Below are positions 2,845 through 20,000 of a stretch of DNA of 20,000 bases, in pieces. The notes under the pieces are model-generated. The model saw only the letters and a program-made list of their open reading frames with translations. It was not told where the DNA came from and searched no databases. The translations under genes and the position numbers were made by a program. The stretch is from an uncultured virus (IMG/VR IMGVR_UViG_3300008113_000179) (taxonomy: Duplodnaviria; Heunggongvirae; Uroviricota; Caudoviricetes). The DNA lies in IMG/VR virus record IMGVR_UViG_3300008113_000179. The stretch is one strand, 5' to 3'. The stretch's first letter is position 1; every line of letters begins with the position of its first letter.

Positions 2845-2852
2845 GGACTAAT

Positions 2853-5795: not shown

Positions 5796-5796
5796 A

Positions 5797-5803
5797 CTAA
5801 ATA
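5797..5803 (+). promoter_or_regulatory. Putative T4-like late promoter box CTAAATA
   Basis: Resembles the T4 late box TATAAATA; 21 nt upstream of a structural-type gene; the motif recurs before several other genes. Confidence 0.55.
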
Positions 5804-5824
5804 TATTAAAGGGTCGACAAATGT

Positions 5825-6619
5825 ATGCAACTAATTCCAGTTTATTTATATCCAAACAAGGTCGACGTCTACACAAATGTCCCTGGGACATGGACCACGG
5901 AGAGGTATCGAAAAGTGTATAATCGAACTGTAAAGCTGTTTCGTGGTGCCGATAACCGTGTTGATATTCAGATAAGAAACTCTGACGAAAAAGCATTAAA
6001 TGTAACCGGCTCCACAGTATCATTTAGCCTTATTAGGTACAGCAACCAAAGTTTAGTGGTTACAAAAACTTGCACACCTATTGATATAACCAAAGGTAGA
6101 TTTTACGTAACTATTACCGAACAAGAACTGTATGATATCAACAATGGGTTTTATCAATACTCGGTCTACAAAGAAACTCCAACAGGAGTAAAAACTCCAT
6201 TATATATTGATAGTCAGTATGGTGCTGTAGCTAACATCGAAGTTGTAGGCGACATAAAAGGTAATTTGCAACCGAGCCTTGATATAATCGAGTTTGCTGA
6301 ATATAACCCCGGTGTGTTTGGAGAAATTGGTAATATATTTTTTACTAGCAGTCTAATAGATACAAATTATGAATCAGAAGTTAGTAACAGTACACATACA
6401 TTTGCGTTTTATTCAACAGGATATACTGGATCGGTAAAAATACAAGCAAGTTTAGACGAAAGTGCTGCACCTAATAATTGGACAACAATTACTACAATTT
6501 CGATCAATAATGACCCGTTAATGTATTCAAACGTTACCGGCAAATGGAAATGGTTTCGAATTGTGCATACTCCGGTAACTAATTCTACCGGAAAGTTTGA
6601 CAAAATAACGTATAGATAG
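5825..6619 (+). CDS. Probable virion structural protein with BppU N-terminal-like beta domain
   Basis: RGADNRVDIQIRNSDEKALNVTGSTVSF...KGRFYVTITEQE pattern; Thr/Ser/Asn-rich beta composition; late box upstream. Confidence 0.55.
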   Translation: MQLIPVYLYPNKVDVYTNVPGTWTTERYRKVYNRTVKLFRGADNRVDIQIRNSDEKALNVTGSTVSFSLIRYSNQSLVVTKTCTPIDITKGRFYVTITEQELYDINNGFYQYSVYKETPTGVKTPLYIDSQYGAVANIEVVGDIKGNLQPSLDIIEFAEYNPGVFGEIGNIFFTSSLIDTNYESEVSNSTHTFAFYSTGYTGSVKIQASLDESAAPNNWTTITTISINNDPLMYSNVTGKWKWFRIVHTPVTNSTGKFDKITYR

Positions 6620-6625
6620 TATACT
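6597..6625 (+). promoter_or_regulatory. Sigma70-type promoter for the primase gene (probably leaderless)
   Basis: TTGACA(6597-6602)-N17-TATACT(6620-6625), then 6 nt to ATG 6632. Confidence 0.8.
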
Positions 6626-6631
6626 AGTGCT

Positions 6632-7648
6632 ATGGCCCTAGTCGTAGACACTTTTCGTAAACTAATACCTCCCCGTGCTAAGTCGAGCCCTAGCGGATGG
6701 ATCAGTTTTAATGCCCCATGTTGCAGTCATCGTGGACATAGTTCAGATACTCGTAAACGTGGCGGGCTTATGGTTGGCGATTCAATTGTATTCAATTGCT
6801 TTAATTGTAAATTTTCTACAGGGTGGAAGCCTGGGTCGTCACTAACTACTAAATTTAAAAATTTGTGTAAGTGGTTAGGAGCATCAGACGACGATATCAA
6901 GCACATGATATTCGATGCTATGAAAACCGAATCCGTTGACTATGTGCCTACAGAATCAAAAGAACTTGTAATATTCACGAAAAAAGAATTGCCGCCAGGC
7001 TCATTGCCTATTAAAGAATGGGCTAATCGATCATCATCATTATTAACTGAACTAGGTCCAGTATTAGAATATCTTGTTGATAGAGGGTTTGATCCAGCTG
7101 CCAATAATTTTTATTGGAGTCCTGAACCAGGATATTCTGATAGAGTTATCATTCCGTTTTTCTATAACGGAGAAATTGTTGGCAATACTGCAAGAAAAGT
7201 TCGTAACGGCAAACCAAAATATTTGTCAGATCAACATCCGTTTTTTGTGTTCAATGTTGACGAGCAAACAGAAGAAAAAAAATATGTATTTGTTTGTGAA
7301 GGCCCGTTTGATGCATTATCAATCGGAGGTGTTGCACTTCTCACTAATGAAATCTCTTCGCAGCAGGCCCGCATAATTAATAATATAGGGTGTGAAGTTA
7401 TTGTGATCCCAGATCAAGATATTCCAGGACTGGTATTGATTGATCAAGCAAAAGAATTAGGATGGAAGGTAGCATTCCCCACGTGGGACAATGATACTAA
7501 AGATTGTGCAGATGCTGTACAAAAATATGGAAAATTATTTGTTATTGTGGATGCTATAAAAACAGCCACTAACAATCCTGCTAAAATAGAAATTGAAAAA
7601 AGAAAACTTCGAGATAAGTTTGAATATATGGAGAATCAACATGGTTAA
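6632..7648 (+). CDS. dnaG: DNA primase (T4 gp61/DnaG-type, Zn-binding plus TOPRIM)
   Basis: N-terminal PCC...NCFNC Zn ligands, RVIIPF, KPKYL, and TOPRIM motifs CEGPFDAL and PDQD, then KDCAD. Confidence 0.9.
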   Translation: MALVVDTFRKLIPPRAKSSPSGWISFNAPCCSHRGHSSDTRKRGGLMVGDSIVFNCFNCKFSTGWKPGSSLTTKFKNLCKWLGASDDDIKHMIFDAMKTESVDYVPTESKELVIFTKKELPPGSLPIKEWANRSSSLLTELGPVLEYLVDRGFDPAANNFYWSPEPGYSDRVIIPFFYNGEIVGNTARKVRNGKPKYLSDQHPFFVFNVDEQTEEKKYVFVCEGPFDALSIGGVALLTNEISSQQARIINNIGCEVIVIPDQDIPGLVLIDQAKELGWKVAFPTWDNDTKDCADAVQKYGKLFVIVDAIKTATNNPAKIEIEKRKLRDKFEYMENQHG

Positions 7649-7757
7649 AAAAATACTAAATTTTATTTTATATCCCTGGCACAAGTATCAAGAACACAAG
7701 GCGTGGAAAAAACGTTTAGAAGAATTACGTAAACGTGATCCATTTATCTACAAATGA
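7641..7757 (+). CDS. 38-aa basic peptide MVKKILNFILYPWHKYQEHKAWKKRLEELRKRDPFIYK
   Basis: Below the ORF-track cutoff. GGAGA RBS upstream; fills the gap exactly; ATGA-coupled to the carbamoyltransferase. Confidence 0.75.
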   Translation: MVKKILNFILYPWHKYQEHKAWKKRLEELRKRDPFIYK

Positions 7758-8695
7758 TTGAGTGGGGGGTGAATGCCCTTAATCACGGTTCTAGTCTAGC
7801 TGTATTCAAGGACGGTAGTCTATGGTCCAACCAAGCGGGCTCTTCGGACGAGTTAGACAGCAAAATAATTACCGATGCCCTGCATGTTGGAGCACCGGAT
7901 CGTATCTTTTGGTACGAACGTCCCTGGATAAAGAAGGCAAGACAACTACGTGCAGGCCAATGGCATCGTGTCTTAGACATGTCCGTACTTCCACGCAAAT
8001 ACATGAAAGCGCAACATTATGCTCCGATCACTTATACTCCGCATCATGCTAGCCATGCAGCCGCAGGCTACTATACCAGTCCTTTTAATCATTGTGCTAT
8101 TGTGGTACTCGACGCCATAGGTGAGTTTGAATGTGCTACCATATGGGAAGGCAAGCAAGGAGAAATGCGCAAAGTGTGGAGTAGAAGCTATCCAAATAGT
8201 TTAGGATTATTTTACAGTGCATTTACACACGCTCTCGGAATGACTCCTATTCAAGATGAATATCAGTTACAACAAATGTCTGAAAAAGGCAATCCTAAAA
8301 TTTTTTATTACAAAGTAAAGAAATATTTTACAGGTCTTTTAGAATTGAATTATAATTTTCACAAAGGTGTTAATGATCAAAAATTCTACATAGATAGCAT
8401 AGAAGACGAATGCAATCTTGCTGCCGCTGTTCAATTAGTGTTTGAAGAACAAATTGCATTGATTATGAATAAGGCAAAAGAACTAACTAATTCAGATTGT
8501 TTAGTATACATGGGTGGATGTGCAATGAACAGCAAGGCAAATAAAAAAATTGTAGAGCCCATGTTTGAGTATCGTTGGTCATTGCCTAATCCAGGAGACC
8601 CTAGCAGTAGTATTGGAGCAGTATTGTATCACACTAAACAAAGAGAGCAAAAATACAACTTTGGTGTTGCAAAACATATAGAGATTCGTGTATAA
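7754..8695 (+). CDS. NodU/CmcH-family carbamoyltransferase, N-terminal Kae1-like domain only
   Basis: HHASHAAAGYY, LDAIGE, SLGLFYSAFT, GGCAMNS and PNPGDPSSSIGA motifs. Ends at 313 aa without the C-terminal YrdC-like domain. Confidence 0.85.
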   Translation: MIEWGVNALNHGSSLAVFKDGSLWSNQAGSSDELDSKIITDALHVGAPDRIFWYERPWIKKARQLRAGQWHRVLDMSVLPRKYMKAQHYAPITYTPHHASHAAAGYYTSPFNHCAIVVLDAIGEFECATIWEGKQGEMRKVWSRSYPNSLGLFYSAFTHALGMTPIQDEYQLQQMSEKGNPKIFYYKVKKYFTGLLELNYNFHKGVNDQKFYIDSIEDECNLAAAVQLVFEEQIALIMNKAKELTNSDCLVYMGGCAMNSKANKKIVEPMFEYRWSLPNPGDPSSSIGAVLYHTKQREQKYNFGVAKHIEIRV

Positions 8696-8696
8696 T
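8667..8696 (+). promoter_or_regulatory. Putative sigma70-type promoter (probably leaderless)
   Basis: TTGCAA-N18-TATAAT, then 6 nt to ATG 8703. Confidence 0.55.
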
Positions 8697-8702
8697 AAAA
8701 GT

Positions 8703-9350
8703 ATGCAGAATCACAAGCACAATAAAAAATATCAAGTAGGGGATCAGTGGTTAATTGACACGCAGTACACTAGATACAAAGAGTTTCTTCCATTCTTAGA
8801 TCGTGATTCAAGTGAAGACTATGGTCGTGAAACTGTAGCCCAACATGCTAGTCAGTACCCGTTATGGCACGATCCGGATCAAAGTGTAATGTTGGCATAC
8901 CCAAAGAAGTACGGTGGAGACTTTGAAGCACATCCGTTGTGGCATACAGTAGCAGATGGTGCTTATAAGTGGACTAACCGAAAATTAAAAGAGAATGGGA
9001 TTGAATCTGAGATCCGACCAGTAATTAGTTGGTATATTGATTACAAAGAAGGTGGTTGGCAACCAATGCACACTCATTCTAAGAACTGTGTAACACAGAT
9101 TATCTACATGGATGCACAGACTCATAGTGTTAAAGTTAACGAAGCCAATGTACCAGAATTTGATGGTAAGGAAGCACAATGGGGTTCAATGTTTGCATTA
9201 ATGGCCAGTAAGGATGAAACAAAATACGTGTCTTTCATGAATTGGCCTGGAAGATGTGTTTTAATGAGAGGCGATATATTCCACGGTGTGTATCCTGTTA
9301 AATCAGTACCACGTAGAAGTATTATTATTGATTATATAATTTTAACATGA
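8703..9350 (+). CDS. Putative 2OG-Fe(II) oxygenase
   Basis: YKEGGWQPMHTH...IFHGVYP...RRSIIIDY double-stranded beta-helix pattern. ATG 8703 preferred over GTG 8688. Confidence 0.7.
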   Translation: MQNHKHNKKYQVGDQWLIDTQYTRYKEFLPFLDRDSSEDYGRETVAQHASQYPLWHDPDQSVMLAYPKKYGGDFEAHPLWHTVADGAYKWTNRKLKENGIESEIRPVISWYIDYKEGGWQPMHTHSKNCVTQIIYMDAQTHSVKVNEANVPEFDGKEAQWGSMFALMASKDETKYVSFMNWPGRCVLMRGDIFHGVYPVKSVPRRSIIIDYIILT

Positions 9351-10828
9351 TAAAAAATTACGATTACGAAGTACAGAAATTATATCTTGAACTTATGCTG
9401 GCAGACGCAGAAGTATTTGTTCGCTGTCAAGGTATTTTTGATCACACATTATTTGATCGCAAACTGCAAGATGCGGCAGAGTTTCTACATGAATATGCCA
9501 AAGGGTATAATGTATTGCCAGACTATGAAATGGTCAATGCCACCTGCAGAGTTGACCTCAAACGTCCAGAGGACCTCAAAGAAGGACATATGGATTGGTT
9601 TATGGATGAGTTTGAGAAGTTTACTCAACACAAGGCTCTTGAACGTGCAATTATACAATCAGCCGATCTATTAGAAAAACATGACTACGGTGCAGTAGAA
9701 GTATTGATCAAAGAAGCAGTACAGATTGGACTTGCTCGAGACATGGGCACAGATTACTTTGCTGATCCTCGTGGCCGATTGATGGGCATCAAGGACAAGA
9801 ACGGACAGGTAAGTACAGGTTGGCCGACAATGGATAAAAGATTGTTCGGTGGATTCAATCGAGGAGAACTGAATATCTTTGCAGGTGGATCTGGTGCAGG
9901 TAAGAGTTTGTTCTTGGCTAACTTGGGTGTGAACTTTGCACTTGCAGGATTGAACGTGGTTTATCTAACACTGGAACTTTCAGAAGCACTAGTTAGTATG
10001 CGTATTGATGCAATGCTAACAGGAATAGCAACCAAAGACATCTTCAAGGACCTAGATGATGTTGAAATGAAAGTCAAAATCATTGGCAAGAAATCTGGAC
10101 TGTTACAGGTCAAGTACATGCCAAGTGGCAAGACTGCCAATGATATCCGTGCATATCTAAAAGAATATGAAATCAAAGTAGGTAAGAAAGTAGATGTACT
10201 TCTAGTAGACTACTTAGACTTGTTGATGCCACTCAGCAAGAAGATTAGCCCAGCAGACTTGTTTATCAAAGACAAATATGTATCGGAAGAATTGCGTAAC
10301 CTAGCAGTGGAAAAGAACTGTGTGTTCGTTACTGCGGCACAGTTAAATCGTGGTGCTGTGGAAGAAGTTGAGTTTGATCACAGTCATATCTCAGGTGGCT
10401 TGAGCAAGATTCAAACTGCAGATAATGTGTTTGGTATCTTTACCAGCAGGGCTATGCGTGAACGTGGACGCTATCAATTACAGTTGATGAAGACTCGTAG
10501 CTCAAGCGGAGTAGGCATGAAGATTGATCTTGAATTTAATCTTGAAAGTCTTAAGATTTCAGACTTGCCAGAGGACGAACAAGAACACAGTGGAGCAACA
10601 TCTAGGGGTAGTAGTTCGATCATCGAATCTATTAAAAATAGATCAACAGTTGTAAAATCCGACGACCGGGCACAACCCAAAGAAGGATTTGACCCATTTA
10701 ATCCAACGCCTAATGCAGGTAGAGGATTAGACCCATCGCAAGGCACAGGCGTTGGAAAAGTTCGTGCTAACGTAGAATCCACAAAATTACGTGAAATTTT
10801 AAATTCTATGGGTAATGATGAAGAGTAA
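9347..10828 (+). CDS. dnaB: Replicative DNA helicase, DnaB / T4 gp41-like
   Basis: STGWPTMD, Walker A GGSGAGKS, TLEL, Walker B LLVDYLD, AAQLNR and MKTR; low-complexity C-terminal tail. Confidence 0.93.
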   Translation: MIKNYDYEVQKLYLELMLADAEVFVRCQGIFDHTLFDRKLQDAAEFLHEYAKGYNVLPDYEMVNATCRVDLKRPEDLKEGHMDWFMDEFEKFTQHKALERAIIQSADLLEKHDYGAVEVLIKEAVQIGLARDMGTDYFADPRGRLMGIKDKNGQVSTGWPTMDKRLFGGFNRGELNIFAGGSGAGKSLFLANLGVNFALAGLNVVYLTLELSEALVSMRIDAMLTGIATKDIFKDLDDVEMKVKIIGKKSGLLQVKYMPSGKTANDIRAYLKEYEIKVGKKVDVLLVDYLDLLMPLSKKISPADLFIKDKYVSEELRNLAVEKNCVFVTAAQLNRGAVEEVEFDHSHISGGLSKIQTADNVFGIFTSRAMRERGRYQLQLMKTRSSSGVGMKIDLEFNLESLKISDLPEDEQEHSGATSRGSSSIIESIKNRSTVVKSDDRAQPKEGFDPFNPTPNAGRGLDPSQGTGVGKVRANVESTKLREILNSMGNDEE

Positions 10829-11060
10829 TAGACTTGAGCTGTATCATTGGCGCATTGCCGTTGGCATCGATGCACCGATCGAAGTCGATTGGCCCGACGT
10901 ACACAAAACTGTAGGAGTTGATCTAATAAGTTGGATTAACAAACAGCCCAAGGAAAAATGCCAGTTAGTTGTAGATAAACTCAACGACGATTTCAAACTC
11001 ATAGCAGAATTTTACGATCAACAAACACTACTAGCTTATCACTTAATGTGGGCTAAATAA
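10815..11060 (+). CDS. Hypothetical protein (81 aa)
   Basis: Overlaps the helicase stop and fills the gap to the next gene. Confidence 0.7.
   Translation: MMKSNRLELYHWRIAVGIDAPIEVDWPDVHKTVGVDLISWINKQPKEKCQLVVDKLNDDFKLIAEFYDQQTLLAYHLMWAK
11053..11059 (+). promoter_or_regulatory. Putative late promoter box CTAAATA
   Basis: 4 nt upstream of ATG 11064; recurrent motif. Confidence 0.55.
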
Positions 11061-11063
11061 TGA

Positions 11064-11774
11064 ATGCGCCTAAGAGAATTACAAGAACGATCAGATATAA
11101 TTACAGTTAATCGCCGTCTTAATCCCAAGATATGGGACGGTGATTCGCTCGACCCAGCAGTTGCACAAAAGCTCAAAGAAATTGCTGACGCATTTCAAGA
11201 GTTTATAGGCATTGATCTAGATGTAGTAGATTACACAATTACTGGATCAAACGCCAATTATACTTGGACTGATCACAGCGACCTAGATCTGCATCTTATT
11301 ATTCAAGGAGAGGTAGGAGAAGCGGCTCGCGAACTGTTCAATGCCAAAAAGGCACTCTGGGCAGAGCAACACAATATTACTATCAAGGGATTGCCTGTTG
11401 AATGTTATGTTCAGGGCAAAGAAGAAGAACACCACAGTACCGGAGTGTATAGCATAGCTGACAATCGATGGCTGGTTGAACCTAAGAAAATAAAACCAGA
11501 AGTAGATGACAGTGCTGTGGAAGCTAAAAAAGATTCAGTCATCCATGATATCGAAACTGCCCTGTTAAGCAAGGATCTTAACAAGTTAAGAGCTGTTAAA
11601 GAAAAAATTACCAAGATGCGCAAAGCAGGATTGGAACGTGCAGGTGAGTGGTCGGTGGAAAACCTAGTTTTCAAAATACTAAGAAATTTGGGTCTTATTG
11701 ATGAAATTGCAGATAAGATTCGCGAACTAGAAGATCAAGAACTGAGTCTAGAACAAACTCAAGTGTTAATTTAG
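11064..11774 (+). CDS. DNA polymerase beta-superfamily nucleotidyltransferase
   Basis: ITGSNANYTWTDHSDLDLH = hG-S-x10-DhD motif; candidate third acidic residue in PVECYVQ; helical C-terminal domain. Confidence 0.85.
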   Translation: MRLRELQERSDIITVNRRLNPKIWDGDSLDPAVAQKLKEIADAFQEFIGIDLDVVDYTITGSNANYTWTDHSDLDLHLIIQGEVGEAARELFNAKKALWAEQHNITIKGLPVECYVQGKEEEHHSTGVYSIADNRWLVEPKKIKPEVDDSAVEAKKDSVIHDIETALLSKDLNKLRAVKEKITKMRKAGLERAGEWSVENLVFKILRNLGLIDEIADKIRELEDQELSLEQTQVLI

Positions 11775-12340
11775 TCTTTGTAAACAGTATTAAAACTAAT
11801 AGTAATTCTGTTATCAGTTGAATTAACATCAGTGCTATGTTCTAACCAACTGGGAAATATTATTAACTTTCCGGGAACACAATCAATATCAAAATGGTTG
11901 GTACTATTAAAGTTTGGTTCTTGAACAAAATCAAACATCTTAAATGCTGCTATTGGACTGTGTAGAGTCAGTGGCACACTGCCCGGATCTGCATCAACAT
12001 AAAATGCTCCAGACACAATGCTCATTTCGTGCCGGTGATTGTCAACTCGTTGACCCTTGCCCATCTTGTTAAACCAATTGCTAGAAATTGTAACTGGTTT
12101 AATCCCCATGTTTGTAATATAACTATCAACACAGTCTTGTATACGCTGTTTAAATCCAGCAAGTTCTGCAATGTCTAAAAATTGTCGTTCATACAGATTA
12201 TAACTACTTTCTGCGCCGTGAAGCAGTCCGTGTGGTTTAGTTTTGTGAACTGCAATCAATTGTTTAATTAGGGGCAGGTCTGGATCTGTTGATAGATCGT
12301 ATTCTTGTATCACAGTGGGAAATAAATTAGCTTGTCTCAT
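11771..12340 (-). CDS. Putative 2OG-Fe(II) oxygenase (TIGR02466-like)
   Basis: LFPT N-terminus, WFN...HRH...SGAFYV...GKLIIFPSWLEH...RITISFN. Confidence 0.88.
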   Translation of the reverse strand: MRQANLFPTVIQEYDLSTDPDLPLIKQLIAVHKTKPHGLLHGAESSYNLYERQFLDIAELAGFKQRIQDCVDSYITNMGIKPVTISSNWFNKMGKGQRVDNHRHEMSIVSGAFYVDADPGSVPLTLHSPIAAFKMFDFVQEPNFNSTNHFDIDCVPGKLIIFPSWLEHSTDVNSTDNRITISFNTVYKD

Positions 12341-13233
12341 TTAACGCCTTTAGTTATAGTTTTCGGCTTAATGCTGAAATCTTTGCTAATACCCATGCGC
12401 ACAGCCCAACTGGTCATGCCTTTTTCGAATCGTTTCTGTTTGGCATTAGCATCTACTACAAACGGGTTAATCTCTCGTTCAATCCATGCTCTATCATTAA
12501 TAGAGTCCGCTTGTATGATACCTTTCATATAACCGTCAACTAAATCCAATGTGGTATCATTGTGCAGTGCTTGACCTGCACGTGGCCCGAGAATGTTGTG
12601 ATTGCTAAGACACATGTGATTGTATCTAGGATCAATGCCTTTCCAATAGACTTGATTTTCATCTAATAGTGGATCCCAAAACTCATGCACCTGTATGTGA
12701 TCCATTAGATTGCCATTGGCCCAATTAAGCTCTTTAAATTGTCCAGCCTGTGCAACAGTTTGATCAAAGCATTTGATAACCAAGGGCCTGCGTAACTTTT
12801 GTCTGCGAGTTTGATAAGCCACATAGGCCATACGATTTTGTAAATGAAGTGTATCTAGCAAAGGTCGCTGTATGTATTGAATGAATCCCATGATAGCCTT
12901 GGCCTGATCCTTGGTTACAAATTCGTCTAGATCAGTTAGATGATGGTTGCTAACGTCTGGCTGTGTTTCAAAGTACCATTGACGATTGGGATGTGTCAAT
13001 CCAATGATCAAATAATCGTCGGGTGTGATGCGCCCTGAATACAATTGATGTAATAAAAAACAACTAAAGTCTTGAGCACTGCCCATAACTGCTTTGGTAT
13101 CAACTTCAACAGTCTTGCCTGATAGTCGTGACAGTTCATCAGCAGCCTGCTGAATCCACCAGGGTTTGATTTCTTCGTTCAACGGCGGAACCATAAAGCT
13201 ATCGCCTACCACGAATAATTTAGGATTTCTCAT
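12337..13233 (-). CDS. SGNH/GDSL-hydrolase-like protein, paralogue B
   Basis: KLFVVGDSF block I motif and C-terminal DPRYNHMCLSNH; colinear with the adjacent 292-aa ORF. Confidence 0.65.
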   Translation of the reverse strand: MRNPKLFVVGDSFMVPPLNEEIKPWWIQQAADELSRLSGKTVEVDTKAVMGSAQDFSCFLLHQLYSGRITPDDYLIIGLTHPNRQWYFETQPDVSNHHLTDLDEFVTKDQAKAIMGFIQYIQRPLLDTLHLQNRMAYVAYQTRRQKLRRPLVIKCFDQTVAQAGQFKELNWANGNLMDHIQVHEFWDPLLDENQVYWKGIDPRYNHMCLSNHNILGPRAGQALHNDTTLDLVDGYMKGIIQADSINDRAWIEREINPFVVDANAKQKRFEKGMTSWAVRMGISKDFSIKPKTITKGVK

Positions 13234-14108
13234 TTGTTATTAGTGGTAATTCCACGACGGTTTTTCCAGGGCAACAAAGAATTTTTGTATTGCTTTCTAT
13301 TGTCCAAGTTCCTAAGAGTAATTTCATAATCCAGTTCAGTCTGCTGGAATTCGATATTAGTTTCCCAATCATCGGGTATAATCTTTTCAACGAATCCAGA
13401 TGTAATATCAAGAACAGAGTCAGTGATCAATGCTGTGGCAATCTTTTCAGCGAGTATTTTATGATTGCTAAGACACATGTGATTGAATCTGCCGTCTAGC
13501 CCTCGCCAAAAAACATCAGCAACTTCACGATCCTTATCGGAAAATTCGCCACGTTGGATATCTTCAAACAAATTGCCCTTGGCCCAATTTAGTTCTTCAA
13601 ACTCTTCAGCATGCCCAATCATTTGATTAAAACAGTTGATCATCAACGGTCGATTGAGTTTTTGCTCGTTAACCATAAGAGCCAAATAGGCCATGCGATT
13701 GATCAACAGCATTGTGTCTAAGTTAGGACGTTGTATGTGCTTGATAAACAGCTCAATAGCTGTGGCTTCTTCTTTAGTAACATGTCGATCTAAATCAATA
13801 ATGTTAACATTGGTCAGTTCGGGAAGTCTTTCTAGAAACCAATATCGACTGGGATGTGTTAGGGCAACAACAAGATAATCGTCAGGTCCTATAGCATTGT
13901 TAAAAAACCATTCCTGTAGTAGTCCCCAACAAAAGTCCTGTGCTGACCCAATCAATGATGAGTTGATTAAGTGTACTGGTTCCCCGTGATGCTGACTCAA
14001 CAGGTCTGCGGTAAGTCTATGCCAAGTGGGTGCGGATTCAGTTCCGGGCCTACAGGCAGCAAAGCTGTCGCCCAATATAAAAAGTTTACGTCCTGCGGGA
14101 TATGTCAT
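13230..14108 (-). CDS. SGNH/GDSL-hydrolase-like protein, paralogue A
   Basis: KLFILGDSF, GSAQDF, PDDYL, LTHPSR, NRMAY and DGRFNHMCLSNH, matching paralogue B. Confidence 0.65.
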   Translation of the reverse strand: MTYPAGRKLFILGDSFAACRPGTESAPTWHRLTADLLSQHHGEPVHLINSSLIGSAQDFCWGLLQEWFFNNAIGPDDYLVVALTHPSRYWFLERLPELTNVNIIDLDRHVTKEEATAIELFIKHIQRPNLDTMLLINRMAYLALMVNEQKLNRPLMINCFNQMIGHAEEFEELNWAKGNLFEDIQRGEFSDKDREVADVFWRGLDGRFNHMCLSNHKILAEKIATALITDSVLDITSGFVEKIIPDDWETNIEFQQTELDYEITLRNLDNRKQYKNSLLPWKNRRGITTNNK

Positions 14109-14147
14109 ATTATTAATTATCTATTTTCTCATTCAGTGCGTATTTTA

Positions 14148-14206
14148 TTGATTTATGATAAGTATTCATGTATACTAGTATACACGACTCACAAGGACAC
14201 TGTCAA
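14148..14206. promoter_or_regulatory. Overlapping divergent sigma70-type promoters
   Basis: + strand TTGATT(14148-53)-N17-TATACT(14171-76); - strand TTGACA(14206-01)-N18-TATACT(14182-77). The -10 boxes form the palindrome TGTATACTAGTATACA. Confidence 0.6.
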
Positions 14207-14208
14207 CC

Positions 14209-14646
14209 ATGCTGCACGAAATTAATGATCTAACCGACGAACTGCTTCGACTAATCAAGGACGATCCTGTGAGACCAGAAATTCCCCTAGATCAACGTGT
14301 CAATGGTAATAGCAAAATTTACGTGTTGCAAAATGACCAAGGTGATCCAATTGCAGTTACCTGTGTCAAGTTTCTCAGTGACATTCCCAAATCAGTTAAC
14401 GAACTGACTGATCTTGCAGTTAATTCTAGTACTGCTGTGTTCTATACCATTTGGAGTTATGCTGCGGGTGCGGGTAGAGATCTTATCATGGCTGCTCAAA
14501 AGAACATTGAAGAAACCAAACCTGAAGTGAAAACTTTTGTTACGCTAAGTCCCAAGACAGAAATGGCCCGCAAGTTCCATCACAAGAACGGGGCCACTAC
14601 ATTTAGAGAAAACGAAGACTCGATCAACTACCTATACAAAGGTTAA
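14209..14646 (+). CDS. GNAT-fold protein resembling the malonyl-CoA decarboxylase catalytic core
   Basis: TAVFYTIWSY...GAGRDLI...KTFVTLSP...ARKFHHKNGA; AAGGA RBS. Confidence 0.6.
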   Translation: MLHEINDLTDELLRLIKDDPVRPEIPLDQRVNGNSKIYVLQNDQGDPIAVTCVKFLSDIPKSVNELTDLAVNSSTAVFYTIWSYAAGAGRDLIMAAQKNIEETKPEVKTFVTLSPKTEMARKFHHKNGATTFRENEDSINYLYKG

Positions 14647-14831
14647 CGAGTTTGGTACAGTTCTACTTCACCAACCCACTGATCGCGACCCTGTAGGCCC
14701 ATGCGTTCAGCAAATTCGCGAGCTTGTGCTTCTGCCAGTGCAAGTTCACGCACTTCAGTGCCGTCTAGGAACTGTTGTACAATACGCTGTTTTGTACGTG
14801 AATTACGAGCCATTATTTTGTAAGCCTGCAT
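14643..14831 (-). CDS. Hypothetical protein (62 aa)
   Basis: AAGGAG RBS and a CTAAATA box (14856-14850) upstream. Confidence 0.75.
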   Translation of the reverse strand: MQAYKIMARNSRTKQRIVQQFLDGTEVRELALAEAQAREFAERMGLQGRDQWVGEVELYQTR

Positions 14832-14924
14832 GATATCTCCTTGATGAATTATTTAGCTGGGCATGCTTGTGATGCCGAAGGCGCAGCGCAAATTTTTTTG
14901 TGCGTAGCACTAGCGCAAGATTTT

Positions 14925-15149
14925 TTAGTCGAATAAAGTGCGCACTATTCTTGTCTGTTCAGGGTACATGATGAGCCACTGTGCAGCCAGCATTTCAGCA
15001 CTAAACAGGAGCCACCAATCTGTAGGAATTGCTGCGTTATACTGTTCTGTATGCGCATAACTGCGCGGCCAATACCGAACCTGCCGATCCCACGAGGTCA
15101 AGATCGTAACTTGCGCTAACACTAGAGGTTCAAGATAAACTAGCAACAT
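14925..15149 (-). CDS. Hypothetical protein (74 aa)
   Basis: TTAAATA box 8 nt upstream; fits the gene packing. Confidence 0.55.
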   Translation of the reverse strand: MLLVYLEPLVLAQVTILTSWDRQVRYWPRSYAHTEQYNAAIPTDWWLLFSAEMLAAQWLIMYPEQTRIVRTLFD

Positions 15150-15164
15150 GCTAGTAGTATTTAA

Positions 15165-15734
15165 TTATTTTTTTGCTATTTGATAGTTTACGGTCATTAC
15201 CATGCGTGTTTCGTGCAAGGTAGGAGTAGAACTTGAATGATAATGTTGTCCCGGAAAGTCAAACCATAGGTTAGCAGTAGGTGCCTGTTCAAAGATCAAG
15301 CTAGGAGTCTTGGGCACAGGTTGTCGACGTGTTTCCCGATAAACCCTAGTAGGACCTGTACTAGAGTAGGGATACCATATGCCTGTGCGATGCTCCAGCA
15401 CAGGATGATCCACGTGAGGCGTGTGTACTATTTCTTCGGGAGTACGAGTGCTGAAGCCCAAGCGTATGCGCAACACACTAACAGGAGTTTCACCATTGAG
15501 ATCACACGCTCTAAATAACACCTGTAGAGCCGGCTCCCACAGAGTGCTTAGACCCTTGTCGTCTGCGCCGATAAGGTGACTGAAGCTGCCTGAGTATTCT
15601 GATATACTGTCCAGATCGTCGGGGTTGGCTGTAAAGGGGCTGTAGAACCACTGTATAGCTTCGGGTGTCAAGCGTTCACGAGTATAGATATACTGACTAG
15701 GGCCTAGTAGGTTTTCATGCCGTCTAACTATCAT
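15165..15734 (-). CDS. Putative 2OG-Fe(II) oxygenase (189 aa)
   Basis: HTPHVDH (HxD), FPGQHYHSSSTP and RMVMTVNY. Start moved to ATG 15734, immediately after the upstream stop. Confidence 0.75.
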   Translation of the reverse strand: MIVRRHENLLGPSQYIYTRERLTPEAIQWFYSPFTANPDDLDSISEYSGSFSHLIGADDKGLSTLWEPALQVLFRACDLNGETPVSVLRIRLGFSTRTPEEIVHTPHVDHPVLEHRTGIWYPYSSTGPTRVYRETRRQPVPKTPSLIFEQAPTANLWFDFPGQHYHSSSTPTLHETRMVMTVNYQIAKK

Positions 15735-15735
15735 G

Positions 15736-16419
15736 TTAAAACTCAATCCAACCGTTGACCAAGTACTTGACGCCACTGCGTGGAGGATTTCCACGATGTG
15801 TGTGCGTGTAGTTGCCAGGGTAGATCAGTAAGGTGCCCATACGACTTGGCTCTACTCGGGGATAGTACAAGAACTCTGTTTCTCCACCCGCTGCCACGTT
15901 GTTCAAAAACAACTGCACATTCATGAGTCGGCTGCAACTGGTACGTCCTTCCTGTTCCCAATGCCACACATGAAATCCACCGCCTATTTCAGTTTTTTGT
16001 ATTTTGATTTCATAAATGCCCTGCTGTGCTTGTGTGTCTAGAGCAGAGTACTTTTCAGTGTAGATTCTATAGCATTCCCACACCACATCTAGAAAGTGAT
16101 TTTGCATAGAAGGTACGCCCACAATGCCAATATCGTTAACACCTGCTGACACAGCACGACTGGTGTTAAAGGCCACTGTGTCTTTTAGATGCGCAGGCAC
16201 ACCTTCCACTCGCTGGCGACTGCGTCCAAAGCCTAGAGCGTTCATGCTCTCAAAGTATTCAATAGCTGATGAGCAGTAGTCCTCTGTAAAGGCATGTTCA
16301 AACTTGCCCACAAAGTCTGAGATCTCTACTGTCATACTAGGATTTAATATACTAGTGGGATCCGGGGGTGTCCACGTATTGGCCAAATTGGGTGTGGCTG
16401 CGGGCTTGAATTGCGTCAT
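15736..16419 (-). CDS. 2OG-Fe(II) oxygenase, prolyl-4-hydroxylase-like
   Basis: KIQKTEIGGGFHVWHWE, FLNNVAAGGETEF, IYPGNYTHTHRGNPP, KYLVNGW; GGAG RBS. Confidence 0.9.
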   Translation of the reverse strand: MTQFKPAATPNLANTWTPPDPTSILNPSMTVEISDFVGKFEHAFTEDYCSSAIEYFESMNALGFGRSRQRVEGVPAHLKDTVAFNTSRAVSAGVNDIGIVGVPSMQNHFLDVVWECYRIYTEKYSALDTQAQQGIYEIKIQKTEIGGGFHVWHWEQEGRTSCSRLMNVQLFLNNVAAGGETEFLYYPRVEPSRMGTLLIYPGNYTHTHRGNPPRSGVKYLVNGWIEF

Positions 16420-16422
16420 AAA

Positions 16423-16462
16423 AATACTCCGTAAGCAGTGTGTAACTACTTATCGGAGTATT
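16423..16462 (-). promoter_or_regulatory. RBS-sequestering hairpin / possible terminator containing an ATAAGTA late-type box
   Basis: AAUACUCCG-A-UAAGUAG/UUACACA/CUGCUUA-CGGAGUAUU followed by UUUAUG. Confidence 0.6.
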
Positions 16463-16485
16463 AGCGAACTAAACTAAGTCTTGGT

Positions 16486-16716
16486 TTATGCTTGGCCAGT
16501 GGGGATATGCTCTGGACGACCCGTTACTTCAAGTCCTGCTTTTGGTGCTCCGTACTCTGCTGCTTCTACTGAAGTCTTGAGTAGACCGCTGTATACTGCA
16601 CGAGCAGCTTCGCCTTCCGCTAGTTTGGCTTGTGCTTCTGCGCCACGTGCATTACGAGCTGCTAGAGCTGTGGCTGCTGCTTGTTCTGCGCTTAATGGTG
16701 TAATTGTTCTTGACAT
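16486..16716 (-). CDS. Small Ala-rich hypothetical protein (76 aa)
   Basis: AGGAG RBS; CTAAATA box at 16760-16754; strong GCA/GCT codon bias. Confidence 0.8.
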   Translation of the reverse strand: MSRTITPLSAEQAAATALAARNARGAEAQAKLAEGEAARAVYSGLLKTSVEAAEYGAPKAGLEVTGRPEHIPTGQA

Positions 16717-16752
16717 GTTGCTATGCTCCTAATGGGTAACAATGTTATAGTG

Positions 16753-16932
16753 TTATTTAGCATGAAACTCCGCATAATATGCAATGGCAGCTAGTAACAG
16801 GGTAATAAACACCCATGCCCAGCGGCTGACTGGACCTTCTACATCATGTACTGCATAGTAAGCATCAAAGTCGGGATCATAGCGATACAGCTTGCCCCTA
16901 ATGATTTCGTGTTCTGTACGTTGTTGTTTCAT
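16753..16932 (-). CDS. Small membrane protein (59 aa)
   Basis: MKQQRTEHEIIRGKLYRYDPD... with a C-terminal hydrophobic helix WAWVFITLLLAAIAYY. Confidence 0.65.
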   Translation of the reverse strand: MKQQRTEHEIIRGKLYRYDPDFDAYYAVHDVEGPVSRWAWVFITLLLAAIAYYAEFHAK

Positions 16933-17065
16933 ACTAGTATATAGTAAAAAAAGGTTACAAGCTGAGAAAAAAATACTGCGCAAATTTTTTAAAAAGCGTT
17001 TTTCAACCAGTATAGGATGATTTCTATAGTACCAGGATCTGGGGGAATGGGAACGTACATGCGAC

Positions 17066-17269
17066 TTATATAGAGGTTACTTGAGCTGCAACACAGGTTG
17101 CTTGCACCAGCACAGCTAGTCCCTGGACTCTAGCTGTGTTAACAATCAAGGCACGTTGGGTTTCCACAGCTAGCACACACTCTTGAGCTGAATAGAAATG
17201 TGTGGTTGCCTGCAGAAAATCACAAGTTGAATTGGCACAAATGAATAGCACGGGTATGAATATGTTCAT
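17066..17269 (-). CDS. Small 4-Cys hypothetical protein (67 aa)
   Basis: Hydrophobic N-terminus and four spaced Cys; CTAAATA box 7 nt upstream. Confidence 0.65.
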   Translation of the reverse strand: MNIFIPVLFICANSTCDFLQATTHFYSAQECVLAVETQRALIVNTARVQGLAVLVQATCVAAQVTSI

Positions 17270-17471
17270 GATGAATTATTTAGTTTTGATTACACTAAAC
17301 AAGATTACAGAAAAAGGGCTGTGTGAGGGAAAAAACAAGAACGCTAAAAAATTGTGGGTAAGTACTTTTCGTTTCAGGGTGGTGATTTTAGACCACTACC
17401 ACTTTTTAAACTACTGTACGTATATACAGTACTATGCCGGCCGGCCTCGCCCACCGACCACCACCGACCCC

Positions 17472-17699
17472 TCATCGGTTGGCGGTGTTCAACCATGACC
17501 AATAGGTCAGCATGTCACCCTTGAGTCCCATAAGGACCCCTTCGTATGCAGCGTAGGGCAACACTTGGTATTCCCCAGCTTCATATCGAAGACGATGCGG
17601 GTTGTTGTTCAGCTTGGTAGCCTGCTGCTTTGCTGTGCGCTCTTGCTTGTAGTAACGCTCTGCACGTCCGCTTGCTGTGTTGTATACAATGTATCCCAT
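17472..17699 (-). CDS. Hypothetical protein (75 aa, MGYIVYNTASGRAERYY...)
   Basis: ATG 17699 follows the upstream stop by 1 nt; AGGA RBS. Confidence 0.65.
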   Translation of the reverse strand: MGYIVYNTASGRAERYYKQERTAKQQATKLNNNPHRLRYEAGEYQVLPYAAYEGVLMGLKGDMLTYWSWLNTANR

Positions 17700-17700
17700 A

Positions 17701-17886
17701 CTACTTCCTACATCCATTAGGGTTATAACAAGGCTGCTTGCCCATTGGGTGATCCCAGTTAGGTAACTGTTCGTGTAAGGCACGACCCGTCTTGGGGTCC
17801 CAGGGTGCATCACGTGGATCCCTACTGGCGCAGCCTGTGCTAATCGCTGCGAGCGTTAGCAATACACATGTCAGCACGAGCCGCAT
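17701..17886 (-). CDS. Small predicted lipoprotein (61 aa)
   Basis: MR, hydrophobic core, then lipobox-like ISTGC; two C-terminal Cys. Confidence 0.7.
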   Translation of the reverse strand: MRLVLTCVLLTLAAISTGCASRDPRDAPWDPKTGRALHEQLPNWDHPMGKQPCYNPNGCRK

Positions 17887-18076
17887 AGTCTTCTAGCCTT
17901 CCTTCTTGTTCTAGTGTTTCCAGTACTGCCATCTGCATAAGGCTGTTAGCGTCTGCACGATCCTTGGGTGTGGGCATGCTTCGTATGAACAGTTGAGCTT
18001 GCTCTATACTGGTGCAGGCCCACAGTATGTCCATGATGGCCTTTTGCTTGTGTGTGAGTCCTGTAATGGTAATCAT
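17840..18076 (-). CDS. Hypothetical protein (78 aa, MITITGLTHKQKAIMDILW...)
   Basis: ATG 18076 directly follows the upstream stop. Confidence 0.7.
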   Translation of the reverse strand: MITITGLTHKQKAIMDILWACTSIEQAQLFIRSMPTPKDRADANSLMQMAVLETLEQEGRLEDYAARADMCIANARSD

Positions 18077-18077
18077 G

Positions 18078-18263
18078 TTAGTCATAGTAGTGACTGTTAC
18101 GGAAACCCAGTGTGCCCGCATACATAGCCAACAGGCCCAACACTGCCAATAGCAAACTGCCTGTCAGTTGTTCTGCATCCACGCTGGCTTCTACACCACC
18201 CACTGCACCCAGTGTAAGTATGAGTCCTGCTATGAATACGAAAAAGGCTTGATTAGTTGTCAT
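18078..18263 (-). CDS. Small two-helix membrane protein (61 aa)
   Basis: Two hydrophobic stretches; AAGGA RBS; consensus promoter upstream. Confidence 0.75.
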   Translation of the reverse strand: MTTNQAFFVFIAGLILTLGAVGGVEASVDAEQLTGSLLLAVLGLLAMYAGTLGFRNSHYYD

Positions 18264-18288
18264 ATAGTTCCTTTGTGTGTATGTAGTA

Positions 18289-18319
18289 ATTATAGCGTCA
18301 TCTATCCAAACTGTCAACC
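18289..18319 (-). promoter_or_regulatory. Early sigma70 promoter P1
   Basis: GG-TTGACA(18317-12)-N17-TATAAT(18294-89). Confidence 0.9.
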
Positions 18320-18336
18320 AAAGACCCTTGCGGGTC
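18320..18336 (-). terminator. Short stem-loop, possible terminator
   Basis: GACCC-GCAA-GGGUC then UUU, just after the stop of the 115-aa gene. Confidence 0.5.
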
Positions 18337-18341
18337 CCGGG

Positions 18342-18689
18342 TCAATCAAGTCTGCTGCCCGCATAGGCTTCGAAGCCGTACTTCTCAAACACCCCGGCTG
18401 CTGCGCGAGCGCCTGCTTCAAGAGTGTCCACGTTCTGGCAACCGAACTTTGAGGGATTCCACATCTCTAAGCCGCCTGAGTAGGAAGGACGAATCCCGGT
18501 GGCTTTCAGGGCCTTGCCCAACTTGGTGTTGCCCTTGACGCCGTAGATCTTCACCCAGGCAAAGCCGCAGGCGAATTGATCCCTACCGCCCAGCTCTTGG
18601 CGAAAGTACTGATCAGCTGCTGCGTGTGCTGCTGATTCAGCTTCGGCTACGATCATTGGAATCTGCTCTGGGGTTGCTGTGATAGTCAT
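18342..18689 (-). CDS. Hypothetical early protein (115 aa, CGFAWV motif)
   Basis: AAGGAG RBS; own promoter and downstream hairpin. Confidence 0.85.
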   Translation of the reverse strand: MTITATPEQIPMIVAEAESAAHAAADQYFRQELGGRDQFACGFAWVKIYGVKGNTKLGKALKATGIRPSYSGGLEMWNPSKFGCQNVDTLEAGARAAAGVFEKYGFEAYAGSRLD

Positions 18690-18717
18690 TGCTGCTCCTT
18701 AGTGTGTGTATGTGTCA

Positions 18718-18748
18718 ATTATACTGCCAAATGCCCAAACTGTCAACC
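18718..18748 (-). promoter_or_regulatory. Early sigma70 promoter P2
   Basis: GG-TTGACA(18746-41)-N17-TATAAT(18723-18); the -35 box contains the TGA stop of the upstream gene. Confidence 0.9.
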
Positions 18749-19087
18749 AATTTCGCACTCTTGTGCCATTGTGATTGGAGTTGCTGGGTAGCGTATGGAT
18801 CCCTCGTAGTCCAGCTGGCTCTGCTCAAACTCTGTAAGGTATGTGTCCTCTACTACAGAGTAAAACAGTATGGTCTCACGATAGTAGTCATCATCCTGCT
18901 CAAGGCGAGGGCGGAAGTATTCAATGATCTCTTTCAGGGCCTCAGTGCTGCGAGCCTGGGTGCCGAGATCATAGCGATAGTCGTTGCCGCCTTTGGCTTT
19001 CCAATACTGGGGGCAAGCACCATCAGCAGAATCCCAATCATGGGCGCCGTAGTTCTCGTATATTTGTGTAGTGATGATCAACTTCAT
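18743..19087 (-). CDS. Hypothetical early protein (114 aa, TQxYENYGAHDWD...PQYWKAKGG)
   Basis: TAAGGAG RBS; own promoter. Confidence 0.85.
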   Translation of the reverse strand: MKLIITTQIYENYGAHDWDSADGACPQYWKAKGGNDYRYDLGTQARSTEALKEIIEYFRPRLEQDDDYYRETILFYSVVEDTYLTEFEQSQLDYEGSIRYPATPITMAQECEIG

Positions 19088-19118
19088 ATTCGCTCCTTAT
19101 TTGCTAAACTATGTACAT

Positions 19119-19149
19119 AGTATAACACCTTGTGTCCAAAATGTCAACC
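19119..19149 (-). promoter_or_regulatory. Early sigma70 promoter P3
   Basis: GG-TTGACA(19147-42)-N17-TATACT(19124-19). Confidence 0.9.
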
Positions 19150-19176
19150 AAAATGACTGTGGCATTTCTGCCACGG
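19150..19176 (-). terminator. Stem-loop, possible terminator or palindromic operator
   Basis: GUGGCA-GAAA-UGCCAC then AGUCAUUUU, immediately after the 128-aa gene stop. Confidence 0.5.
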
Positions 19177-19179
19177 ATC

Positions 19180-19566
19180 TTAGTCTAACCAGCTTTCTAC
19201 CATCACCACGGGCTTCTTGAGCACACGCTTGACGAAGTCCTCAGGCTCATCGTCACAACGCACTAACATAAAGCCCATGCTCTCTACCAAGTCCACCTCG
19301 CATACCTGCAGATCTAATGCGGCAGCTTCAAAGGCAATGTTCATCTTGGTCAGTGCATACTTGACGCCGGCGGCAAAGGCCTCGTACTCGTTGTCTACCA
19401 CTTCGTCAAAGTCGAATTCCTTTAGAAGGATTGAGCTGTACTCTTGTCCATCTGCCACAATGAACTTGCCGATCTTCTTCCAGTTGCTTTGCTTCTCACT
19501 GTCGAAGTGATCGCATGCTTCATTGAGGTCAAAGCTGGCAAAACGGTCATAATTTACTTTAGTCAT
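19180..19566 (-). CDS. Acidic hypothetical early protein (128 aa)
   Basis: AGGAG RBS; own promoter. Confidence 0.8.
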   Translation of the reverse strand: MTKVNYDRFASFDLNEACDHFDSEKQSNWKKIGKFIVADGQEYSSILLKEFDFDEVVDNEYEAFAAGVKYALTKMNIAFEAAALDLQVCEVDLVESMGFMLVRCDDEPEDFVKRVLKKPVVMVESWLD

Positions 19567-19599
19567 CTGTCGCTCCTATTACTGTGTTACTGTGTCGCT

Positions 19600-19630
19600 A
19601 TTGTACAACTAATTTGGCTAGTTGTCAACC
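19600..19630 (-). promoter_or_regulatory. Early sigma70 promoter P4
   Basis: GG-TTGACA(19628-23)-N17-TACAAT(19605-00). Confidence 0.85.
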
Positions 19631-19638
19631 TAGTATTG

Positions 19639-19852
19639 GACAGTTAGGAAAGAACTAAAGGAACATGTAGTCTACCCAGGGGACCGTCTCCACAAGGGCT
19701 TGTACCGTCATTACTGCCTACAAGATCCGCCGCTTCTCCAGTCATTGCTGACCTATTTCATGCACCTAGATTGAGCGTGACCGTCGCCACTGTCCTAACC
19801 CTCTAAGTACCTAACGGTGTAGGTAACCTCTAACTCTTTCCTAACTGTCTAT
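19639..19852 (-). ncRNA. Candidate structured non-coding RNA (~210 nt), family unrecognised
   Basis: Dedicated promoter with predicted +1 a few nt before a 23-bp terminal stem (15 perfect bp plus 8 bp with three G-U); internal GNRA-capped hairpins; no long ORF. Confidence 0.7.
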
Positions 19853-19858
19853 GTATCT

Positions 19859-19889
19859 ATTATATGTTCAATTTACCATTCTGTCAACC
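19859..19889 (-). promoter_or_regulatory. Early sigma70 promoter P5 (drives the candidate ncRNA)
   Basis: GG-TTGACA(19887-82)-N17-TATAAT(19864-59). Confidence 0.9.
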
Positions 19890-19911
19890 AAACAAATAAT
19901 AACCCTACTGC

Positions 19912-20000
19912 CTATGCAGTTTCTTCGTCTTCTAAAAAGTCCTCTGGAAAGTTCTTGCGATCGCACTCTTCCCAATAAGCTTCTTCAGCGATCAAATACT
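19912..20000 (-). CDS. 3' end of an acidic hypothetical protein (start outside window)
   Basis: Reads ...YLIAEEAYWEECDRKNFPEDFLEDEETA-stop, TAG at 19914-19912. Confidence 0.6.
   Translation of the reverse strand, partial: YLIAEEAYWEECDRKNFPEDFLEDEETA

What the first reader, a model, noticed from the sequence alone, without database searches (positions are those of the whole stretch)
19639..19889. Unrecognised ~210-nt multi-domain structured RNA occupying its own early cassette
Seen: perfect promoter P5 has a predicted +1 at about 19852, with no RBS or ORF following. The 5' end GACAGUUAGGAAAGAGUUAGAGG (19849-19827) pairs over 23 bp with the 3' end CCUUUAGUUCUUUCCUAACUGUC (19661-19639). The three non-Watson-Crick positions are all G-U on the - strand (A-C on +), favouring an RNA helix on the transcribed strand. 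Interior by manual folding: hairpin UACCUA-CACCGU-UAGGUA; arm CUUAGA/UCUAGG + GGGU/GCUC + GUGGC-GACG-GUCAC; and a domain closed by GCAUG/CAUGU containing GGUCA-GCAA-UGACU, GGAUC/GGUCC and UUGUA/UACAA capped by CA-GUAA-UG. The loop ACCGU is complementary to GACGGU, which occurs three times, allowing a pseudoknot or alternative registers. I do not recognise it as tRNA, tmRNA, SRP, RNase P, 6S or a known ribozyme. Inference: an abundant immediate-early phage RNA, for example an anti-defence decoy, protein sponge or new ribozyme.
Basis: partly seen in the sequence, partly recalled or inferred. Interest (0 to 1): 0.88.

Follow-up and report, generated by a model that had tools for sequence, protein, structure and literature searches.

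The report
New folded RNA of lake phages
An uncultured giant lake phage carries a real gene for a compact, folded non-coding RNA of an uncatalogued family that related phages usually keep among their tRNA genes; its shape is now well supported, but its job is still unproven.

Summary
The gene is real: a 12/12 sigma70 promoter, a 23-bp closing stem and no Rfam match. I collected 173 distinct homologues from freshwater phage contigs. They come from ~350-kb jumbo phages and from unrelated ~173-kb phages, one copy in each near-complete record that has it. It has two three-way junctions with near-invariant cores, and two arms whose loops (GACG and GACGN) change together and so probably kiss. The closing stem looks like a dispensable processing helix. 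The 'own early cassette' is the exception: 53 of 76 representatives lie within 1.5 kb of tRNA or tmRNA genes, and 23 follow a boxA-like element, a layout like that of rRNA operons. The internal ORF, the GACGGU pseudoknot and rRNA mimicry are not supported. My best guess (about 40%) is a stable trans-acting RNA that binds a host translation or RNA-metabolism protein by shape. Expression evidence is weak and comes from relatives only. This scan found the same family before on other DNA (e1-6110433).

The parts
19859..19887 (-). sigma70-type promoter, TTGACA-17-TATAAT (12/12); +1 near 19852 is inferred from spacing
   Evidence: in 9 of 76 representatives the -10 box ends 30 nt before the conserved core, the spacing the window shows
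19639..19849 (-). RNA gene including the closing stem, 211 nt; conserved core about 19828-19660
   Evidence: model R1 180.1 bits
19827..19849 (-). P1 5' strand; the outer part is a variable, AU-rich leader-trailer-type helix, and only the innermost two G-C pairs are invariant
   Evidence: 21 of 23 pairs change on both sides; stem under 20 nt in 15 of 76 representatives
19639..19661 (-). P1 3' strand
19813..19826 (-). P2 5' strand: P2a UUAC (19826-19823), P2b CUAC (19822-19819), P2c CCGUU (19817-19813)
   Evidence: 98.7-99.7% of cells paired in A3; P2b and P2c covary, P2a shows no compensatory change
19711..19731 (-). P2 3' strand: GGCGG (19731-19727), GUAG (19721-19718), GUAA (19714-19711)
19762..19810 (-). 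P3 arm (45-49 nt between the 10th and 90th percentile of the family) with GACG tetraloop L3 at 19785-19782
19757..19761 (-). junction strand AUGAA (ANGAA in all 173), opposite the AG at 19812-19811, in the second three-way junction
   Evidence: partly fixed by the search patterns
19732..19756 (-). P4 arm, very variable in length
19662..19709 (-). P5/P6 arm with GACGG pentaloop L6 at 19688-19684, predicted to kiss L3
19600..19628 (-). next promoter (11/12), starting 11 nt after the RNA; no terminator-like site lies between them
19180..19566 (-). 128-aa ORF of unknown function; not a constant partner of the RNA
   Evidence: no PHROG or Pfam hit; the RNA lies in the fetched flank of 13 of 80 loci of this gene
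19644..19745 (-). internal 33-codon ORF, judged incidental
   Evidence: its start lies in the variable P4 arm; 45 of 164 homologues have an in-frame ATG with 30 codons or more, 85 have fewer than 10

Best explanation
A phage gene for a stable, compact, trans-acting non-coding RNA. SHOWN by comparison: it is a conserved family, with a nested fold of two three-way junctions. It is non-coding and independent of its neighbouring gene. INFERRED, strongly: the L3 and L6 loops form a 2-3 bp kiss that closes the fold. Host sigma70 polymerase transcribes it, alone here and in most relatives as part of a tRNA operon. INFERRED, moderately: P1 works like an rRNA leader-trailer helix, helping folding and being trimmed by a double-strand nuclease such as RNase III, which releases a core of about 170-180 nt from read-through transcripts. 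GUESSED: the core acts by shape, binding a host protein of translation or RNA turnover as a decoy or scaffold, and so helps keep phage translation going alongside the phage tRNAs and tmRNA. That it is a real structured RNA gene: about 0.97. The confidence below is for the protein-binding mechanism.
For: Covariation: 89.0% of cells paired and score 0.446 on a plain MAFFT alignment of 50, against 38-45% and at most 0.115 for slid controls; 91.7% and 0.646 on the model-fitted alignment of 60. L3/L6: both core pairs are Watson-Crick in 159 of 160 members with both loops called, with GGCA/GAUGC in 7 and GCUG/GACAG in 1. Context: 40 of 76 representatives within 150 nt of a tRNA-type gene and 53 within 1.5 kb, all on the same strand; 23 of 76 behind a boxA-like motif. 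In G007 and G017 the only strict match to that motif lies just upstream of this RNA. One match per record in 12 of 14 near-complete records, and in 6 of the 7 that were reached through the neighbouring protein. Present in two phage lineages whose helicases are 28-29% and 55-69% identical to the window's. Conserved bases sit in junctions and helices, with no long conserved unpaired stretch for antisense pairing.
Against: No partner protein or target was found: 31 ORFs shared by three carriers and missing in the non-carrier G009 included none I could recognise by eye as RNA-binding (one negative genome, not scanned against family libraries). G009 is 100% complete and lacks the RNA, so it is not essential. 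No transcript of the window's own copy was seen. Core invariance is partly built into the search patterns. P2a has no compensatory change. Eight members have neither kissing loop called. The loop permutation test ignores relatedness and rests on few events. RNase III cleavage was not tested.
Confidence: 0.4

Rival explanations
1. An RNA-only oligomer: the GACG/GACGN kiss forms between molecules, building rings or cages as ROOL and GOLLD do.
For: The loops change together, which fits inter- as well as intramolecular pairing. GACG hairpin pairs stabilise MuLV RNA dimers (PMC5874298, passages). ROOL and GOLLD lie near tRNA islands and oligomerise through kissing loops (PMC12286853, passages).
Against: It is 211 nt against 659 for the ROOL studied there, with a single kiss. 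Both loops are missing in some members that keep the core.
Confidence: 0.15
2. A new ribozyme that processes the stable-RNA operon or another RNA.
For: A junction plus loop-loop contact is an architecture that ribozymes use (own knowledge). It often abuts tRNAs: 17 of 76 begin within 40 nt of an upstream tRNA, 14 of them tRNA-Glu(UUC).
Against: No Rfam ribozyme match. The invariant bases are mostly paired. In the window and 22 other representatives no tRNA lies within the flank read (four of these had only about 300 nt of flank), which argues against cis processing.
Confidence: 0.12
3. An rRNA mimic that titrates ribosomal proteins or an rRNA-attacking nuclease.
For: rRNA-type packaging (boxA-like motif, leader-trailer-type helix). 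Shared 8-mers with the E. coli 16S head region: 3 of 100 shuffles as high.
Against: That was the best of 24 comparisons; 23S and the reverse complements were at shuffle level. Model R2 without filters scored at most 2.8 bits on E. coli rrnH. Only E. coli rRNA was tested, not the host's.
Confidence: 0.08
4. A cis-acting leader, riboswitch or antisense RNA.
For: Paired-junction folds can bind metabolites (own knowledge). The transcript can read into the next ORF, since no terminator-like site was found.
Against: The next gene has its own promoter. Downstream neighbours are tRNAs or changing ORFs. No long conserved unpaired region.
Confidence: 0.05
5. A passenger of tRNA arrays with no current function, or an mRNA for the 33-aa peptide.
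For: Absent from G009; two copies in L166 and L501.
Against: Structure is kept at a mean pairwise identity of 55% and across two phage lineages. The ORF is not conserved.
Confidence: 0.04

Closest known systems
Phage T4 small stable RNAs rnaC (species 1) and rnaD (species 2)
   Same: Phage non-coding RNAs of unknown function in a tRNA cluster (PMC9697503, passages).
   Different: 139 and 119 nt; no homology (best score 5.7 bits, E 0.28). They are classed as late RNAs there; this RNA follows a host-type promoter.
GOLLD and ROOL RNAs
   Same: Phage or prophage RNAs near tRNA islands, function unknown, with covarying kissing loops (PMC12286853, passages).
   Different: Three to four times longer; no Rfam match to them; oligomerisation of this RNA is untested.
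Bacterial pre-rRNA cassette (boxA plus leader-trailer helix)
   Same: Promoter, boxA-like motif, long helix enclosing the RNA, then tRNAs (PMC10250234, abstract).
   Different: The enclosed RNA is about 175 nt and not detectably rRNA-related. The helix is short in about a fifth of members. The window copy has no boxA-like motif.
MuLV SL-C/SL-D GACG tetraloop kiss
   Same: GACG-capped hairpins pairing through C-G pairs (PMC5874298, passages; Kim and Tinoco 2000 seen only as a reference title).
   Different: Here it is a tetraloop with a pentaloop in a phage RNA; a shared motif, not homology.
Phage RNA decoys: pseudo-ToxI of phage PhiTE and RNA anti-CRISPRs (Racrs)
   Same: Phage non-coding RNAs that neutralise a host protein by mimicry; the functional model for the leading guess (PMC3475682, PMC10651486, start of abstracts).
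   Different: Those mimic short repeat units; this is a multi-domain fold with no identified model or target.

Membership tests
Any Rfam 15 family (includes RNase P, SRP, 6S, Y-like RNAs, riboswitches, catalogued ribozymes, GOLLD, ROOL) | score at or near the family's gathering threshold | tested here: not met
   no match in 19639-19849 up to E 10; in 20 homologue loci only tRNA reached its threshold; one search likewise for L109
tRNA / tmRNA | cloverleaf, or tRNA-like domain with tag frame | tested here: not met
   ARAGORN found 0 genes in the window; the four genomes read carry a separate tmRNA
T4 rnaC / rnaD | sequence or structure homology | tested here: not met
   R2 without filters, best 5.7 bits, E 0.28
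T4 rnaC / rnaD | location in a phage tRNA cluster | tested here: met
   met for the family (53 of 76 within 1.5 kb), not for the window copy
GOLLD / ROOL | large ornate fold of over 500 nt | tested here: not met
   211 nt; model R1 has 218 positions
GOLLD / ROOL | RNA-only oligomer | not testable with these tools
   needs native gel or cryo-EM
GACG kissing-loop motif | two loops with complementary CG cores that change together | tested here: met
   159 of 160; further variants by eye in L467, L480, L496; physical contact not shown
pre-rRNA-type cassette | boxA-like motif upstream and a long enclosing helix | tested here: inconclusive
   motif in 23 of 76, helix of 20 nt or more in 61 of 76; Nus binding and RNase III cleavage untested
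rRNA fragment or mimic | sequence or fold similarity to 16S/23S above chance | tested here: not met
   E. coli rRNA only
Racr / pseudo-ToxI decoys | likeness to a CRISPR repeat or antitoxin repeat unit | tested here: not met
   no Rfam CRISPR-repeat or ToxI match; inside the RNA only one two-copy direct repeat of 24 nt at 79% was listed, among the 20 largest families shown
Self-cleaving ribozymes | protein-free cleavage | not testable with these tools
   needs an in vitro assay
CsrA/RsmA sponge RNAs | several conserved ANGGA sites | tested here: not met
   79 of 173 have none, 69 have one
Small-protein gene | conserved start and frame | tested here: not met

The most novel reading that the evidence does not exclude
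A new class of RNA machine: phages mature this RNA by the host's rRNA pathway (Nus/boxA, leader-trailer helix) because it is a ribosome-associated or catalytic component of their own translation kit, passed between unrelated phage lineages that share betaproteobacterial hosts.
Probability: 0.2. Interest if true: 0.9.

Novelty: new variant of a known kind. Interest (0 to 1): 0.62.

Why it matters
The known kind is the orphan structured RNA of phage tRNA operons (T4 rnaC/rnaD, GOLLD, ROOL); what these RNAs do is a long-open question. This family has a fold found in no catalogue I searched. It is small enough for probing, cryo-EM and pull-downs, and it comes with natural compensatory variants and minimal versions that define mutants to test. 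Its rRNA-like cassette and its presence in two unrelated phage lineages point to a host-facing function. The limits are that no cultured phage searched carries it and that no function is shown.

Tried and rejected
No genome is held for the window; the nearest record G001 covers only window 1-18434, so the sequence beyond 20000 is unknown. blastn against 50,697 phage records gave 2 chance hits at E 3. R1 found nothing in 8 cultured jumbo phages (4 repeated with laxer filters) and R2 nothing better than E 2.8 in 5. One pattern scan of the GTDB genome collection gave 0 matches; this is an exact pattern, so distant cellular homologues are not excluded. rRNA mimicry, suggested by look-alike words seen by eye, failed the k-mer and model tests. 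A two-piece partnership with a second RNA of the same operons is not obligatory: that RNA was not found by BLAST in G004, G013 and G029, all at least 96% complete, which carry this one. Of the 4 laid, X1 did not cover the RNA and none covered its first 49 nt. Two contigs stop right after the conserved core, but family members diverge there, so this is not evidence of a 3' end. Fremin et al. 2023 (PMC10690425): core motifs were not found in supplementary files 3-6, but files 1-2 and three larger files could not be read, so the family may be among their candidates. RNAalifold alone recovered only P1, P2b, P2c and P6.

Full report
Observation. The minus strand carries a 12/12 promoter at 19887-19859 and an 11/12 promoter at 19628-19600, with no ORF of 40 aa or more between them. 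The 23-bp stem is the longest inverted repeat in 17000-20000 and its three non-Watson-Crick pairs are G-U on this strand. The region folds at z -3.09, the opposite strand at -2.04. Rfam has no match here up to E 10 and ARAGORN finds nothing. The window is phage DNA with helicases, primase, a polymerase piece and several 2OG-Fe(II) oxygenases; its helicase is closest, at 53%, to Pseudomonas jumbo phages PA5oct and Paride.

Family. Of 80 viral loci picked by the downstream protein, 13 hold a homologue in the fetched flank. Pattern scans followed by profile or covariance searches gave 122 hits in 305 loci, 64 of the 80 listed loci and 80 of 80 fetched metagenome loci. Pooling alignments A1-A4 gives 173 distinct sequences of at least 170 nt. 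Mean pairwise identity among 50 representatives is 55%. Model R2 finds one match in 12 of 14 near-complete records. Many of those were chosen because they carry it; among the 7 reached through the neighbouring protein it is 6 of 7, G009 being negative. G029 and G030 are 172-175 kb with helicases 28-29% identical to the window's, against 55-69% for the 350-kb group, so two distant lineages share it. One carrier has a betaproteobacterial-type tmRNA 760 nt away, which suggests that host group. No cultured phage tested and no GTDB genome (exact pattern) matched.

Fold. The top mutual-information pairs are mostly Watson-Crick and defined the helices. P1 closes a junction with P2 and P5. P2 runs through P2a (UUAC/GUAA), P2b and P2c to a second junction with strands AG and ANGAA that carries P3 and P4. 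On the plain alignment this structure has 89.0% of cells paired and covariation 0.446, with 0 of 500 shuffles as high and slid controls at 38-45%. With the divergent subfamily added, P2b, P2c and P5a show compensation (91.7%, 0.646; this alignment is fitted to the model). The shuffle control does not keep relatedness. GGUUACC, UAGG, CAUGAA and GUAAUG were used as search words, so their invariance is partly circular. Members found without them, such as L327 and L328, keep GGUUACC, UAGG, ANGAA and GUAAUG.

Kissing loops. P3 ends in G(A/C)CG and P6 in GACGN in 141 of 173. Seven members have GGCA with GAUGC and one GCUG with GACAG. Both core pairs are Watson-Crick in 159 of the 160 with both loops called; random pairing of loops gave at most 150 in 10,000 trials. 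Thirteen members were left out because a loop was not called, 8 of them both. By eye L467, L480 and L496 show two more complementary variants, and L372, L363, L334, L400 and L529 have lost both loops. A few loop calls are register errors of my script, and the signal rests on roughly four events. The third pair holds in only 85 of 160. GACG hairpin kisses are described for MuLV (PMC5874298, passages). Whether the contact is within or between molecules is open.

Context. Among 76 dereplicated members, 40 have a tRNA-type gene within 150 nt and 53 within 1.5 kb, all on the same strand; 17 start within 40 nt of an upstream tRNA, 14 of them Glu(UUC), whose 3' end pairs into P1 by eye. Sixteen have a near-consensus promoter directly upstream. 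Twenty-three follow a boxA-like motif, which resembles the two sites in E. coli rrnH; in G007 and G017 it is the only strict match in the genome. P1 reaches 20 nt or more in 61 of 76 and is short in 15, two of which look like scoring artefacts. It is AU-rich and free in sequence. This matches the boxA plus leader-trailer design of pre-rRNA (PMC10250234, abstract). I therefore read P1 as a folding and processing helix; this is inference. The window copy lacks a terminator-like site, so a discrete RNA would need such processing. Its place in an early promoter array is a minority arrangement.

Expression. I searched with the commonest relative, L109, not the window. Of 4 metatranscriptomes laid, X2 and X3 have contigs over the 3' arm (2612-2676 listed for X2, with 5-9 differences) and X4 a low-depth piece of P3. 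These are contigs of relatives without strand or ends, and DNA is not excluded. This is a weak hint only.

Mechanism. The ORF is not conserved, the neighbours change, ANGGA sites are not kept and no long unpaired conserved stretch exists, so peptide, cis-leader, CsrA-sponge and antisense readings are unlikely. rRNA mimicry failed its tests. No phage partner protein emerged. What remains is a compact RNA selected for shape, made with the phage's tRNAs and shared between lineages. The most economical reading is a decoy or scaffold for a host translation or RNA-turnover protein (0.4), ahead of an RNA-only oligomer (0.15) and a ribozyme (0.12). About 0.15 is left for functions not listed.

Comparison and novelty. 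The niche is that of T4 rnaC/rnaD (PMC9697503, passages) and of GOLLD and ROOL (PMC12286853, passages), but it is a member of none. Five literature searches listed no paper whose title or abstract start describes it; PMC7162821 (passages) mentions tmRNAs but not such an RNA. The alignments of Fremin 2023 (PMC10690425; listing, abstract start and four supplementary files) could not be read and may contain it. This scan reported a look-alike family member earlier (e1-6110433); that note is not independent support. Verdict: a new RNA family with a well-supported fold and unknown function; interest 0.62.

Noticed in passing
L109:3042-3242 (+); also G005-G008, G010, G016-G019, G024, G030: A second conserved ~200-nt RNA in the same tRNA operons, with no Rfam match at threshold, 58 hits in my loci and contig cover in all 4 RNA runs laid. 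The scan has reported look-alikes before.
   Followed up: partly
L326:1389-1510 (+); L323, L119, L084, L124, L013, L016 and others: A third conserved ~110-nt structured element (79 hits) that sits directly upstream of this RNA in 11 representatives and alone in other early regions; no Rfam match at gathering score in the loci scanned. Absent from the window.
   Followed up: partly
L109:3236-3326 (+): Another AU-rich long inverted repeat enclosing a short unrelated insert (by eye), suggesting these phages use such stems as general processing helices.
   Followed up: no
L166:79-529 and L501:637-844 with 1430-1628: Two copies of the RNA on one contig: back to back in L166, and two divergent copies in L501.
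   Followed up: no
window 18289-19887 (-): Five near-perfect sigma70 promoters, each ahead of one small unknown gene or the RNA, sharing a 55-nt repeat in four cases: an early promoter-cassette array.
   Followed up: partly
Some members of this family have AGGAGC in the P3 internal loop, the window copy does not.
   Followed up: no
window 12337-14108 (-): Two adjacent unknown ORFs of 298 and 292 aa share short DNA repeats (12588-12627 with 13451-13490, 90%): probably tandem paralogues.
   Followed up: no
window 14209-14646 (+): 145-aa ORF with a weak match above cut-off to Pfam MCD, malonyl-CoA decarboxylase C-terminal domain.
   Followed up: no
L372:254-594 (-): Phage-encoded permuted, betaproteobacterial-type tmRNA.
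   Followed up: no
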